DNA from: Eledone cirrhosa
Lineage: Eukaryota
Reading direction: 5' to 3'
DNA length: 64,000 bases
Assembly (NCBI GenBank): GCA_964016885.1
Contig: OZ024750.1
Span: 50,282,001-50,346,000 of the forward strand
Shown: positions 12,187 through 17,785 of the stretch, piece after piece
Layout: every line of letters starts with the position of its first letter
How positions within the stretch are numbered: position 1 is the first letter of the stretch
Notes under the pieces: generated by a model
What the model was told of the DNA's origin: nothing
The model's database searches: none
What the model saw: the letters and a program-made list of their open reading frames with translations, nothing else
Made by a program: the position numbers and the translations under genes

Positions 12187-13170
12187 TAAGTATGTACACG
12201 TACATACATATATGTATACAGACGTACAGTAGTATGTATATATATATATATACATACATGCACACATATATATATGTACGTATGGATTCACCGAACATTT
12301 ATTATAATGGTCGGTGTGTTTGTAAACAAACATCCCGTATTAAGCCGTAGTGTCCAGCGACCATCGTTGCTCGTTTGTTCAACACTGACAAAGGAATGCT
12401 GTACTGGTTTCAAGCTTATTAGCTACCGTCAGCAACGTATACCTTCCTGCCAGATTGTTGAACGTATATACTTATCTTATGCATGTTAACGGCTGAGTAG
12501 CACAATTTGCATAACGAGTGGGTTAATCGGCCGGGTTCACCGAAAACGATAAACGGAAAATATGAAACGAAATTTCATTTCCCACTCTTAGTACGGCTGT
12601 TACTTAAATATATGTATGTACACGTACATACATGTATACAGACATACAGTAAATGTTCGGTGAATCCATACGTACATATATATATGTGTGCATGTATGTA
12701 TATATATATATATACATACTACTGTACGTCTGTATACATACATGTATGTACGTGTACATACTTATATTTAAGTAACAGCCGTACTAAGAGTGGGAAATGA
12801 AATTTCGTTTCATTTTTTCCGTTTATCGTTTTCAGTGCACCCGGCCGATTAACTCACTCGATATGCAAATTGGGCTACTCAGCCGTTAACATGCATAAGA
12901 TAAGTATATACGTTCAACAATGTGGCAGGAAGGTATACGTTGCTGACGATAGCTAATAAGCTTGAAACTATTACAGCGTTCCTTTGTCAGTGTTGAACAA
13001 ACGAGCAACGATGGTTGCTGGACACTACGGCTTAATACGGGATGTTTGTTTACAAACACGCCGAGCATTATAATAAATGTTCGGTGAATCCATACGTACA
13101 TATATATATGTGTGCATGTATGTATATATATATATACAAACTACTGTACGTCTGTATACATATATGTATA
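12187..13170. mobile_element. Family D retrozyme-like element, inverted dimer
   Basis: 12187-12650 is the reverse complement of the unit at 12651-13170. The plus arm has a terminal direct repeat (12651 vs 13075, period 424 nt). HHRs at 12396-12438 (-) and 12937-12979 (+). No real ORF. Confidence 0.75.
12937..12979 (+). ncRNA. Minimal hammerhead ribozyme, family D
   Basis: ACGTTG-CTGACGA-T AGCT AATA AGCT T-GAAA-CTAT-TA-CAGCGT. Stem III carries one mutation. Confidence 0.7.
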
Positions 13171-14015
13171 GAGGGTACTTGCAGAAACACGACAACAACA
13201 TACATAGGTGAGACAGCTCGTAGCATAGGTGAAAGGATAGACCAACACTGGGGGGAACTAAAAGGACGAAAAAACGGGTCAGTACTATACGAACATGCTA
13301 GACAACAACATGACGGTAACATAGACAACATAGAAATTAGAATAATATCTAAACATAGGAATGACCCAGCAGATAGGCAAATCAGAGAGGCCAGTGAAAT
13401 AGAAATTAGAAGACCAAAGCTAAACAGAAAGAATGAGTGGAACAACAACACCCAAACAAACAACACTGACCTAAGAGAAGTATAAATAAATAAGTAAATT
13501 AAATTAAATAAAATAAGATAAATAAATACATACACAAGCACATAAACACACACTAGTCACCCAGCAGACACAACACTATACACACTAGTCACACATCACA
13601 CATAACACTATACACACACGCAAACGCATGCGCAAAGAAGACAAAATAAAATAAGATAAACAAACAAGCAAATAAATAAATAAATATATAGACAGACTGA
13701 ACAAAAAAAAATGGCGTAGACATACAACACAACAGGAGGAACAATGAATATAACACCACTGACGATGTTGCAGATGTGCAACGAAAGATTTATGTAAATT
13801 ATGTAAACTATATATATATGTGTTTGTCTATATTGTATCTGTATTATTTTTGACCGCCGGTCAGTCAATGGCAACATTGAGGACCGAGTAAGTTAGATCG
13901 CAGATATATATATATAAAAGACAGCGAGAAGCGAAAACCAACCAAACAGTGAGTGTGTTCTGTTATTAATTCTGGCAATATTACGCAAATATGACCCTCC
14001 CCAAATATAACAATA
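13170..14015 (+). mobile_element. 3' end of a Penelope-like element (GIY-YIG endonuclease, 3' UTR, family A HHR and tail)
   Basis: YIGETARSIGERIDQH...SVLYEHARQQH...RQIREASEI...LNRKNEW stop at 13485, then HHR at 13753-13792 and the shared family A tail to ~14015. The RQI.EA/LN.K.EW pattern recalls Naiad-type PLEs (inference). Confidence 0.8.
13753..13792 (+). ncRNA. Hammerhead ribozyme motif, family A
   Basis: CTGACGA-T-GTTGCA GATG TGCAAC-GAAA. Confidence 0.65.
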
Positions 14016-14057
14016 TATATATATATATATATATATATATATATATATATATATATA

Positions 14058-14240
14058 ACGGAGGAAATGTGGTAAGGAACCAGGTGGGCCATAACGCACC
14101 AAAGTACTCAATAGGGTAGTGGTGTGGGTATGAGGAACGAGTGGGACCCCGACGGCTGAGCTCAAGACGTTTCGACGGCTAATTCAGAATTAGCTGTCGT
14201 AACGGCTCGAGCTTAGCCGTCGGGGTCCTACTCGTTCCTA
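14058..14240. mobile_element. Family C element, fold-back dimer
   Basis: Palindromic junction cgtttc-gacggctaatt-cag-aattagctgtc-gtaacg with arms extending to ggaacgagt/actcgttcc. Confidence 0.7.
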
Positions 14241-15329
14241 TATATATATATATATATATATATATATATATCATATTTTTCTTTTTTCTTTTCCTTTCAT
14301 ATTTTTTCTGTCATATTTCTTACATATTTTGTTTGACACGTTAAGCATGCTCCATTTTTTTTTTTGCTTAAGTGGTTGATAGCTTCTTAACCGCCGTCTC
14401 ACTTTCTATGGCCTTTATAACATATGTTTATTGCTCTGGTATCATTTGGTCCATGGAGCGCGTGGCAACACAAATCGGAAATTGACTTTTGCTCATTTCT
14501 ACCCGCCGAAATGCGATACTCGCTGAATTTATATTTATATATATACCGTTCTCATAACAACAACAAATGCATGAAGGTCTTCTAGATTGCATGGAAAGCC
14601 GTGGAAATAATTATAATGATTAAATGATATATGTAACCTCAGCATCATATTTGGTGCTATATATATATATATATATATTTGATAGTTTGTATAATTTTGT
14701 ATAATTTTGTACATAGATCTGTTGAATATGCATGCCAATTCTAACACATATATGTCCTAGAAACGATCGTTAAATAATGAACTTTTTTTGTTTAATATAA
14801 GGAACTGTTTCATTGTTTCATTCATTATTTTTTTAACATTCTATCTTGACTCTGTATTCCGTTTATCTTTCACCGAAAGTGATTTTTGAATGCATCTCTT
14901 CTTTCCATGATATCCGGATTACATTGAGTTCTTCATACGGATTGGACACTACCGTAAACTTTTCGTAGATTTATCTACATATATATATATATATATATAT
15001 ATGTAGATAAATCTACCAAAAGTTTACGGTAGTGTCCATATATATATATATATATATATATATATATATATATATATATATATATATATATATATATATA
15101 TATATATATATATATATATATATATATATATATATATATATATATATATATATATATATATATATATATATATATATATATATATATATATATATATATA
15201 TATATATATATATATATATATATAATATATTTATATATATATATATATATATATATATATATGTATATATATATATATAAATATATATATATATATATAT
15301 ATATATATATATATATATATCACCAAGTG

Positions 15330-15545
15330 AAGGCGTGTGGCTGAGTGGTTAGAGAATTGGATTCGCAATCATAAGGTTGTGAGTTCGATTCCTGGACCAG
15401 GCGATGCGTTATGTCCTTGGGCAAGACACTTTATTTCACGTTGCTCCTTCTACCTGGAGTTGCGACCGATAGATAGTATTAGCAATTGGAAAGACCAACG
15501 GAAACATTGTTCCCTCGGTCCGATTTGACGAAAGTCGATCGACTC
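15330..15545 (+). mobile_element. tRNA-derived CORE-type SINE (octopus OR-like)
   Basis: A box tggctgagtgg, B box gagttcgattcc, then CORE-like tgtccttgggcaagacactt. Confidence 0.75.
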
Positions 15546-15659
15546 CTATATATATATATATATATACATAATTTACAAGGATTTTCGTATGAAATCGTGC
15601 GTTGAAACAAATATTGTTATATTTGGGGAGTGTCATGTTGATATAGTATTGCCGGAAAT

Positions 15660-16205
15660 AATAATTGTTTCTACGTTTGGCACAAGGCCAGCAATTAACC
15701 AGTGCATTACTGGTATTTCATCGACCCTGTATGGATGAAAGGCAAAGTTATTCTCGGCAGGATTTGCCAATCCACCGCCGGAAATAATAATGAAAGAAAT
15801 AAAAACCAAAAGGTGACTGTGTTTCATTGGATTGGCAGTATCGGTAGAGGGTCGGACGCCATGCTTTCCAGCATAGTTACGTCCCTTTACGATCTGAGTT
15901 CAAATCCCGCCAAGGTTGACTTTGCCTTTCATCCTTACGGGGTAGATAAAATAAAGTACCAGTAATGCACTGGGTAATTGCTGGCCTTGTGCCAAAAGTA
16001 GAAACAATTATTATTTCTAGTAGTGGATAGGGCAGTGGATTGGCAGTATCGGTAGAGGAGGGTCGGACGCCATGCGTGACTCATAGAGTTATGGCCCTTG
16101 TCATTCTGAGTTCAAATCCCGCCGAGGGATCGATAAAGTAAAGTACCAGTAATACACTGGGTAGTTGCTGGCCTTGTGCCAAAATTTGACGGAATTATTA
16201 TTTCT
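15660..16205. mobile_element. Cluster of three tRNA-derived SINEs (octopus OK-like): one minus, two plus
   Basis: gagttcaaatcccgcc B box, gcctttcatccttacgggg..gataaaataaagtaccag body and (ATT)n tail. Confidence 0.8.
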
Positions 16206-17220
16206 AGCAGTATTATAACAATGTGACCCTCCCCAAATATGACAATATATGTATGAATATCTGTATATACACACATACATGTAATGTAATTATGTATGTA
16301 TATATATACATGTAAGTCTATATATATATATATATATATATATATATATATATATACACGTATGCATGAATGTGTATATATATATATATATATATATATA
16401 TATATATATATATATATATATATATATTTATAAATATATATATATATATATTAAAGGTATATATTGAGTTAGGAAATCAATATAGTCCCTTACAACAAAA
16501 TAGCTCTAAGAAAGATATATTTCTGAGCCGTATATTATAATAGAATATAAAAGTAAAAACTAGCACAGATATATATATATATATATATATATATATATAT
16601 ATATATATATATATATATATGTATATATGTACGTATGGATTTACCGAACATTTATTTTAATATTCGGTGTGTTTGTAAACAAACAGCCGGAATTAAGCCG
16701 TACAGTGTTCAGCAACCATTGTTGCCCTTTTGTTCAACACTGACCAAGGAATGTTGAACTAGTTTCAAGCTTATTAGCTATCGTCAGCATCGTATACCTT
16801 CCTGTCAGATGATTGAACGTTTGAAAGTATATACTTCCCTTATGCATATTAACGGCTGAGCAGCCTAATTTGCATATCGGGTGAGTTAGTCGGCCGGTCG
16901 CACCGCAAACGATAAATGGAAAAAATGAAACGAAATGTCATTTCTCACTCTTAGTACGGGCGTTACTTAAATATAAGTATGTACACGTACATACATATAT
17001 GTATACAGACGTACAGTAGTATGTATATATATATACATACATTCACACATACACACATATATATATATATATATATATATATATATATATATATATATAT
17101 ACGTATGGGTTTACCGAACATTTATTACAATGTTCGGTTTGTTCGTAAACAAACAGCCCGAATTAAGCCGTACAGTGTTCAGCAATCATCGTTGCCCTTT
17201 TCTTCAACAATGATAAAGGA

Positions 17221-17263
17221 ACGATGAACTAGTTTCAAGCTTATTAACTATCGTCAGCATCGT
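17221..17263 (-). ncRNA. Minimal hammerhead ribozyme, family D (intact)
   Basis: ACGATG-CTGACGA-T AGTT AATA AGCT T-GAAA-CTAG-TT-CATCGT: perfect 6-bp stem I, palindromic stem III ACUAGU, GUU site. Confidence 0.8.
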
Positions 17264-17531
17264 ATACCTTCCTCTCAGATGATTGAACGTTTGTATACAT
17301 ATATCTATGTACGTCTGTATACATATATGTATGTACGGGTACATACTTATATTGAAGAAACAGCCGTACTAAAAGTGAGAAATGAAATTTCGTTTCATTT
17401 TTTCCATTCACCGTTTTTGGGACGCCCCACCGACTAACTCACTCGATATGCGCAAATTAGGCTGCTCAGTCGTTAATATGCATAGGGAAAATATATACTT
17501 TCAAACGTTCAATCATCTGACAGGAAGGTAT

Positions 17532-17574
17532 ACGATGCTGACGATAGTTAATAAGCTTGAAACTAGTTCATCGT
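17532..17574 (+). ncRNA. Minimal hammerhead ribozyme, family D (intact)
   Basis: Identical to 17221-17263 on the opposite strand. Confidence 0.8.
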
Positions 17575-17785
17575 TCCTTTGTCAGTGTTTAACAAAAGGG
17601 CGACGGTGGTTGCTGAACACTGGACGGCTTAATTATAATAAATGTTCAGTAAACACATACGTACATATATATATGTGTGTGCATGTATGTATATTTATAC
17701 ATACTACTGTACGTCTGTATACATATATGTATGTACGTGTACATACTTATATATACATATATATATATAAATATACATATATACA

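What the first reader, a model, noticed from the sequence alone, without database searches (positions are those of the whole stretch)
12187..17760. Candidate cephalopod retrozyme: ORF-less ~424-470-nt hammerhead unit in circularly permuted, tandem and inverted arrays
Seen: five copies of one HHR (consensus ACGATG-CTGACGA-TAGCTAATAAGCTT-GAAA-CTAG-TT-CATCGT) at 12396 (-), 12937 (+), 16751 (-), 17221 (-) and 17532 (+). In all four arms the sequence downstream of the HHR joins directly back to the sequence upstream of it, with no RT or endonuclease between. The period is 424 nt (12651 vs 13075) and 470 nt between tandem cleavage sites, the difference being mostly (TA)n expansion. Arms start at different points of the unit. 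Known: metazoan non-LTR retrozymes are few-hundred-nt tandem repeats with type I HHRs that yield circular RNAs and are thought to use PLE machinery; palindromic stem III permits dimeric cleavage. Inference: these loci are cDNAs of a small self-cleaving circular RNA mobilised by the PLEs abundant here. I do not know of a description of this family.
Basis: partly seen in the sequence, partly recalled or inferred. Interest (0 to 1): 0.88.

Follow-up and report, generated by a model that had tools for sequence, protein, structure and literature searches.

The report
Self-promoting hammerhead retrozyme with Penelope ends
This is a 420-base non-coding jumping repeat, present over ten thousand times in this animal genome, that carries a predicted self-cutting hammerhead RNA and what is likely its own small-RNA promoter; its copies always end at one of two fixed points, the mark of Penelope-type retrotransposon enzymes, which likely copy it from a small RNA circle.

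Summary
The five hammerhead motifs, the 424/470-nt periods and the lack of an ORF are real. The unit belongs to a family with 10,225 exact 33-nt ribozyme matches genome-wide and at least six subfamily consensuses whose stems covary. The claim of circularly permuted ends fails: 103 of 122 arms end at two fixed sites about 215 and 273 nt after the cleavage site, in (TA)n; only 5' ends vary. All 43 classifiable head-to-head insertions have one short and one long end, the Penelope 'tail' rule, as do 14 of 14 pairs of an intact autonomous Penelope here. No copy was the terminal repeat of an ORF (0 of 81). cDNA mostly runs through the cleavage site (56 of 63), so the template was a circle or an uncut multimer; the DNA does not decide this. 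New: an octamer, a PSE-like motif and a TATA box sit just before the ribozyme, resembling this genome's own U1/U2/U5/U6 promoters (strong in the old subfamily, weak in the young). Only two of the five window ribozymes look intact. Verdict: new member of the known animal non-LTR retrozymes. The scan found the same two-end pattern before in other families.

The parts
12181..12650 (-). Insertion 1, left arm (subfamily A1, about 1.1-1.25 units); 3' end at the short fixed site, running into (TA)n 12107-12180
12396..12438 (-). Hammerhead 1; GUA site, core A9 changed to G and stem III palindrome broken, likely dead
12651..13170 (+). Insertion 1, right arm (A1, 1.2 units); 3' end lost at unit position about 195, where a PLE fragment joins by 5-nt microhomology
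12767..12826 (+). The two fixed 3'-end sites as they lie inside the arm: short site about 12767-12770, long site 12826; between them a 56-60 nt tail with a predicted hairpin
12863..12910 (+). Promoter-like module: octamer ATGCAAAT (12863), TCAG motif (12879), TATATA (12905); also intact on the minus strand at 16868-16875, broken by a 2-nt insertion near 17450
   Evidence: function inferred
12937..12979 (+). Hammerhead 2; predicted cut after 12973; G at 12971 changed to T, which breaks the second stem III pair
13166..14012 (+). 3' fragment of a separate autonomous PLE family (P1): GIY-YIG end, 3' UTR, its own different hammerhead at about 13759, short end in (TA)n; not part of the unit
16565..17305 (-). 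Insertion 2, left arm (subfamily A2, 1.6 units, two hammerheads 470 nt apart); 3' end lost inside the internal TA tract; no promoter module before its first hammerhead
16751..16793 (-). Hammerhead 3; GUU site, two stem I mismatches
17221..17263 (-). Hammerhead 4; GUU site, all helices intact
17294..17755 (+). Insertion 2, right arm (A2, about 1.1 units); 3' end at the short fixed site
17532..17574 (+). Hammerhead 5; GUU site, all helices intact
31790..32460 (+). Older subfamily B copy of the same element, outside the given coordinates (hammerhead 32107-32149, a SINE inserted at about 32238-32400)

Best explanation
It is a non-autonomous, ORF-less retroelement (an animal non-LTR retrozyme) whose 420-nt unit is likely transcribed from its own snRNA-type promoter, predicted to cut itself at a type I hammerhead, and likely copied from a closed RNA circle by the reverse transcriptase and endonuclease of a Penelope-like element into (TA)n. 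Steps: (1) inferred, about 0.55: the octamer-PSE-TATA module starts RNA at the first bases of the ribozyme; loci of about 1.75 units or more (23 of 203 arms) give RNA with two ribozymes. (2) inferred, about 0.8: pairs of ribozymes fold through the palindromic stem III and cut; the monomer is ligated to a circle (about 0.55). (3) shown as a DNA footprint, enzyme inferred, about 0.9: a PLE protein cuts both strands of a TA repeat and primes at two internal sites, one strand at the short site and the other at the long site. (4) shown: each cDNA runs back through the cleavage site for a variable length, and the two cDNAs join 5' to 5', giving tandem arms, head-to-head inversions and a tail on one end only. 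(5) shown for three long arrays: later local duplication lengthens some arrays. The partner PLE is not identified.
For: Fixed ends: 103 of 122 arms end in two windows covering 9% of the unit, against 5 of 122 5' ends; 74 of 89 in a second set. Tail rule: 22 of 22, 17 of 17 and 4 of 4 head-to-head pairs with both ends classifiable are short plus long; no tail-to-tail pair. The autonomous family P1 (intact 1,209-aa ORF) does the same in 14 of 14 pairs, with its short end 203-222 nt after its own predicted cut and tails of 44-59 nt. Frangieh 2024 (PMC11167929) showed in vitro that a PLE protein cuts and extends both strands of AT-rich DNA from two internal start sites that define the tail. No ORF. 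Ribozyme: core invariant, 93% of cells paired, 7 of 16 pairs with changes on both sides; palindromic stem III kept as ACUAGU or ACAUGU. Continuity: 56 of 63 unforced or second crossings pass the cleavage site; junction in register in 195 of 196 motifs. One template lineage per insertion: rare alleles shared 0.89 per kb within an arm, 0.32 with the opposite arm, 0.02 between loci. Promoter: 13 of 13 distinct U1/U2/U5 upstream groups have TCA(G/A)T at -55 to -58, and 3 of 6 U6 groups an octamer-like motif at -77 to -79; six subfamily consensuses (64-96% identical) keep octamer, TCAGCCG and TATAT at fixed spacing, and U2 spacing puts the start at ribozyme stem I.
Against: No RNA evidence was examined, so cutting, circles and promoter use are unshown. 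The circle is not required: in Frangieh 2024 uncut RNA was the main substrate. Stops in the ribozyme zone are somewhat raised on second and third passes (12 vs 7.4 and 4 vs 1.6 expected; first pass 6 vs 8.3; post hoc), a hint of linear templates. The longest arrays show block duplications (L217, L276, L274), so array length does not prove rolling circles. Shared rare alleles can also come from gene conversion. The PSE matrix scores well only in subfamily B (0-3 of 500 shuffles); in A1-A4 it does not beat shuffles (419-498 of 500); the U6 matrix rests on 3 sequences and octamer-to-TATA spacing is 4-5 nt shorter than in U6. The base of stem II is U-U or A-A, not the usual G-C, and Rfam gave no hammerhead match. 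The covariation mostly reflects one split, A against B. In Li 2026 only 1 of 9 frog retrozyme dimers cut in vitro.
Confidence: 0.6

Rival explanations
1. Same element and same PLE enzymes, but the template is a linear, uncut or partly cut multimeric transcript of tandem loci; arrays are replenished by local duplication, and any circle is a side product.
For: PMC11167929: ribozyme mutants insert normally in vitro. Local block duplications in long arrays. Mild excess of 5' ends in the ribozyme zone on later passes.
Against: No step in 5' ends at the cleavage site (10 vs 6.1 in positions 1-21) and none replicated at the predicted start (7 vs 2.4 in one set, 0 vs 1.4 in the other). No consistent position-specific difference between successive units except at the 3' junction. 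Linear copying shortens arrays each generation, yet ribozyme and multi-unit arms persist in every A subfamily.
Confidence: 0.28
2. The unit is only the terminal repeat (pLTR) of an autonomous PLE, seen as short 5'-truncated copies.
For: Identical end geometry to autonomous PLEs; a GIY-YIG fragment abuts one window arm; Li 2026 derive retrozymes from pLTRs.
Against: The unit repeats onto itself; 0 of 81 loci have an ORF continuous with it (19 had a PLE match in the flank, none in register; two read in detail). No similarity to the terminal regions of the PLE families sampled beyond inserted copies (111 loci; 30 end comparisons, best 16 of 500 shuffles). The abutting fragment has its own different ribozyme. 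An ancestral origin from a pLTR is not excluded.
Confidence: 0.06
3. Cut linear monomers are the template and the reverse transcriptase jumps end to end at the cleavage site.
For: Two arms end exactly at the cleavage site and four more within 10 nt.
Against: Junctions are clean in 195 of 196 motifs, most arms pass the site, and units on both sides share rare alleles.
Confidence: 0.04
4. A DNA-level foldback or minisatellite repeat whose hammerhead-like motif is idle.
For: Inverted arms; no RNA data; atypical stem II base.
Against: Fixed 3' and random 5' ends, the tail rule, TA targeting, and compensatory changes in three helices.
Confidence: 0.02

Closest known systems
Animal non-LTR retrozymes (Cervera and de la Pena 2020, PMC7229834: passages and Discussion read; Li, Clavereau and Pollet 2026, bioRxiv 10.64898/2026.07.22.740005: parts 1-3 of 5 read, supplements not seen)
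   Same: ORF-less tandem unit of a few hundred nt, GC under 45% (38%), one type I hammerhead per unit, monomers to multimers, thousands of copies, PLEs in the same genome.
   Different: In what I read, those papers do not describe insertion ends; here two fixed ends, head-to-head pairs and the tail rule tie it to PLE priming. No pLTR parent was found here. Circular RNA is shown there and untested here.
Penelope-like elements with endonuclease (Craig 2021, bioRxiv 10.1101/2021.04.23.441226: passages; Frangieh 2024, PMC11167929: parts 1-2 of 4; Cervera and de la Pena 2014, PMC4209133: passages)
   Same: 5' truncation, partial tandems, inverted 5' copy, tail on one end only, (TA)n targets, hammerhead upstream of two internal RT start sites.
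   Different: No ORF; tail 56-60 nt rather than 30-40; canonical 6-bp stem I and 4-bp stem II rather than the minimal PLE hammerhead.
Newt satellite 2 (Coats, Zhang and Epstein 1994: paper not held; seen only as a title and one citing sentence in PMC2220036)
   Same: Tandem hammerhead repeat reported to be transcribed from an internal snRNA-type promoter.
   Different: Promoter here is predicted from sequence only; this family is dispersed in short arrays with PLE-type ends; the promoter motifs match this genome's own snRNA genes.

Membership tests
Animal non-LTR retrozyme | Short non-coding unit, low GC, no protein | tested here: met
   420 nt, 38% GC, longest ATG ORF 53 aa
Animal non-LTR retrozyme | Type I hammerhead in each unit | tested here: met
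   Core, stems I-III and covariation; stem II base atypical; no Rfam match
Animal non-LTR retrozyme | Tandem copies with at least two complete ribozymes | tested here: met
   20 complete units between successive exact motifs in the loci used; arms over 2 units 16 of 203
Animal non-LTR retrozyme | Self-cleavage of the RNA | not testable with these tools
   Sequence prediction only
Animal non-LTR retrozyme | Unit-length circular RNA in vivo | not testable with these tools
   No raw RNA reads were available; DNA footprints fit circle or multimer
Autonomous Penelope-like element | ORF with RT and GIY-YIG domains | tested here: not met
   No ORF in the unit; none continuous with it in 81 loci, searched with six PLE and window proteins
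Penelope-type insertion (works like) | Fixed 3' ends at two sites, tail on one end only, 5' truncation, inverted 5' copy | tested here: met
   103 of 122 arms; 43 of 43 pairs
Penelope-type insertion (works like) | AT-rich or (TA)n target | tested here: met
   Junction prints; (TA)n loose ends at 12826
pLTR-derived retrozyme (Li 2026 model) | Sequence homology to the pLTR of a PLE in the same genome | tested here: inconclusive
   None found for three PLE families sampled; other families were not sampled
snRNA-promoter hammerhead repeat (newt satellite 2 type) | Octamer and PSE just upstream of the transcribed ribozyme | tested here: inconclusive
   Conserved octamer, TCAG and TATA at snRNA spacing; matrix support strong in B, absent in A

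The most novel reading that the evidence does not exclude
The unit is a SINE-like chimera for Penelope enzymes: a captured host snRNA promoter, a hammerhead placed at the transcription start, and a PLE start-site cassette. A promoter upstream of the start can survive retroposition only because reverse transcription runs round an RNA circle, and a dimeric PLE protein writes both arms of each insertion from one circle, one strand from each start site. This would explain by one mechanism the pLTRs, inverted copies and one-sided tails of all PLEs.
Probability: 0.25. Interest if true: 0.75.

Novelty: new member of a known kind. Interest (0 to 1): 0.5.

Why it matters
How Penelope-like elements make more-than-unit tandem copies, inverted copies and a one-sided tail is an open question. 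This family offers over ten thousand small, ORF-free records of that reaction, and a 420-nt substrate for testing circle against multimer, with intact candidate enzymes in the same genome. It also ties a retrozyme to PLE enzymes by insertion footprint rather than by co-occurrence, and suggests how such a repeat gets transcribed. The class itself is published, and the scan has already noted the two-end pattern in other families.

Tried and rejected
Random circular permutation of ends: rejected. Rfam: no match at gathering scores, only TA-hairpin noise at loose E-values, no hammerhead family. RNA: no RNA holder listed, no evidence either way; the runs laid are contigs of unrecorded kind, three from one sample that may be the source of the assembly, so they are not independent and show no RNA ends. 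A read-based look at 5' ends near the cleavage site was not obtained. Pile-up of 5' ends at the predicted start (383-392): seen in one set, not in the second, rejected. Pile-up at the cleavage site: not significant. The register check had an off-by-one error; one search replaces it. Window fusion of arm 2 to P1 as a template switch: possible, but it would make a short-plus-short pair, so later insertion with target deletion is preferred. Partner search: no homology to P1, P3 or the 36479 family; a short P3 likeness at the long site fails after 30 comparisons. An intron in the unit was considered from a pyrimidine tract and not tested. Pol III transcription is disfavoured by T4-T6 runs before the long site, not excluded. 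Free energies of the isolated ribozymes are unremarkable (z -0.3 to -1.9). Pfam and PDB gave no match for the P1 ORF; its RT identity rests on the YVDD motif and a weak match to another window RT fragment.
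Full report
OBSERVATION. The five hammerhead motifs are at the stated places. They lie in two separate head-to-head insertions, 12181-13170 and 16565-17755, whose four arms are 1.2-1.6 units long. 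Periods are 424 nt and 470 nt. Three motifs are mutated; only those at 17221 and 17532 keep every helix. A further relative lies at 32107. The region between the insertions holds unrelated repeats.

FAMILY. The window is G000:C10:50282001-50346000 in a 3.0-Gb genome; the organism was not determined. An exact 33-nt ribozyme pattern occurs 10,225 times, its reversed control 0 times; diverged copies are extra. I took the first 100 listed matches on contig C1 as a position-ordered sample of 81 distinct loci, plus best-hit sets for the two window subfamilies and the older relative. Consensuses A1-A4 are 89-96% alike, with copies 2-4% from their own consensus; B1 and B2 are 64-72% identical to A, with copies 12-13% diverged. 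The unit is 420 nt, 38% GC, longest ATG ORF 53 aa.

RIBOZYME. It is a type I hammerhead: 6-bp stem I extended through an internal loop by 4 more pairs, 4-bp stem II, 2-bp stem III inside a 6-nt palindrome. Across 18 sequences 93% of cells pair and 7 of 16 pairs change on both sides, while slid controls pair 32-51%; most of this is the single A/B split. The palindrome is ACUAGU in A and ACAUGU in B, each able to form a 6-bp duplex, which matches the dimer-requiring architecture described in PMC4209133 (passages). The triplet is GUA in 114 of 116 motifs of the position sample and GUU in A2 and B. Against activity: the base of stem II is U-U or A-A, Rfam finds nothing, and cutting is untested.

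ENDS. Of 122 arms not cut by a locus edge, 49 end at about 213-217 and 54 at about 273 nt after the cleavage site, in windows covering 9% of the unit; 19 end elsewhere; only 5 of 122 5' ends fall in those windows. The best-hit set gives 74 of 89. Ends mostly run into (TA)n. Head-to-head pairs number 32, 25 and 5 in three sets; of the 22, 17 and 4 with both ends classifiable, all 43 have one short and one long end. No tail-to-tail pair was seen. Craig 2021 describe this one-sided tail for PLEs (passages), and Frangieh 2024 show that a PLE protein cuts and extends both strands of AT-rich DNA from two internal RNA start sites that bound the tail. The young autonomous family P1, whose fragment abuts the window arm, has intact ORFs of about 1,200 aa. 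Of 16 regions fetched, 14 showed both ends and all 14 were short plus long; its short end lies 203-222 nt after its predicted cut, with tails of 44-59 nt. Random circular permutation is therefore wrong, and PLE-type priming is strongly indicated.

NOT A pLTR. Nineteen of 81 loci had a PLE protein match in the flank; none was continuous with the unit in the sense direction, judged by coordinates and by reading two. The query set was six proteins, so a distant PLE could be missed. The masked unit shows no similarity to 111 PLE loci beyond inserted copies, and start-site regions of P1, P3 and two other families do not match above shuffles after 30 comparisons. The partner is unknown; P1 fits by geometry, target and youth only.

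TEMPLATE. 27 of 30 unforced arms and 29 of 33 second passes cross the cleavage site, and the junction is in register in 195 of 196 motifs. So the template was usually continuous across the site: a ligated circle or an uncut multimer. Rare alleles are shared 44 times more often within an arm, and 16 times more often with the opposite arm, than between loci; this fits one template per insertion but also conversion. Against a simple rolling-circle reading, the longest arrays contain duplicated blocks that arose after insertion, and stops in the ribozyme zone are mildly raised on later passes (12 vs 7.4, 4 vs 1.6; first pass 6 vs 8.3; post hoc). An apparent pile-up at the predicted start did not replicate. 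I put the circle at about 0.55, mainly because circles are shown for other animal retrozymes (PMC7229834) and because linear copying alone would shorten arrays each generation.

PROMOTER. Upstream of the ribozyme all six consensuses keep ATGCAAAT, then TCAGCCG 16 nt later, then TATAT 26-27 nt after that. In this genome 13 of 13 distinct U1, U2 and U5 upstream groups have TCA(G/A)T at -55 to -58, and 3 of 6 U6 groups have TATGC(A/T)AAT at -77 to -79 with a TATA box near -30. Applying the U2 spacing places the start at the first base of extended stem I in A2-A4 and B, and at core stem I in A1. A matrix from the 13 sites ranks the homologous site first in B and beats nearly all shuffles (0 and 3 of 500), but in A it does not (419-498 of 500). 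The U6 matrix, from three sequences, matches all eight tested units (0-13 of 300 shuffles). This is a moderate case. Precedent: newt satellite 2, known to me here only through a title and a citing sentence. If the promoter is real, only arms of about 1.75 units or more (23 of 203, a sample biased towards longer arms) can yield unit-length RNA, and none of the four window arms would.

COMPARISON AND NOVELTY. It meets the sequence criteria of animal non-LTR retrozymes and works like a non-autonomous PLE; Li 2026 already argue that link for vertebrates. Searches of the held library listed no paper on a cephalopod retrozyme or on an snRNA promoter in an invertebrate retrozyme; subscription journals, Repbase, Dfam and the preprint supplements were not visible. 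Earlier notes of this scan report the two-end, head-to-head pattern in other families, two in this genome; none matched this sequence or mentioned the promoter. My reading was recorded before I saw them. Verdict: real, a new member of a known kind, with a testable mechanism; interest 0.5.

Noticed in passing
window 14058-14238; relatives at 11990-12105, 17790-17957, 26950-27180: A short ORF-less hairpin family in (TA)n with a long and a short arm and a fixed palindromic centre (12 of 12 printed copies; 3,192 first-look candidates). Its fixed 5' ends contrast with the retrozyme; it may be the scrambled-hammerhead family of earlier notes, which I did not test.
   Followed up: partly
window 13166-14012; full copy L121:2431-6060: Young, abundant autonomous PLE (P1), 1,209-aa ORF with an asparagine-rich insert, a CxxxxCxxC motif before the C-terminal GIY-YIG, a minimal hammerhead and three fixed ends; no Pfam or PDB match.
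   Followed up: partly
window 53010-54900; L128-L156: Second young PLE family (P3, 784-aa frames) also ends at two sites in (TA)n (16 short, 10 long); no canonical hammerhead was seen within 1.1 kb after its ORF in four printed copies.
   Followed up: partly
window 36479-37630; L157-L186: Old PLE family whose 3' UTR seems to hold a hammerhead with a stem II of about 80 nt, ending in (TA)n (read by eye).
   Followed up: no
unit positions 66-84 and 115-130: 5' ends cluster at a conserved GTTTG/CAAAC hairpin and at the start of the internal TA tract (39 vs 17.9 expected); partly alignment effects, possibly an RT pause.
   Followed up: partly
window 32238-32400; L063, L082, L087: A SINE repeatedly inserts into subfamily B copies near the ATTATTAAT motif downstream of the ribozyme.
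   Followed up: no
L323-L422: This genome's U1, U2 and U5 genes share a TCAGT element at about -57 and AATTAAA near -88, while U6 genes have an octamer-like element at -77 instead.
   Followed up: partly
window 5211-7100: Broken Helitron-like Rep/helicase frames, judged from motifs by recall.
   Followed up: no
L194; L113 flank: A PLE family related to window 43077 shows the same junction with (TA)n inside its ORF region in two loci, on the 5' side; unexplained.
   Followed up: no
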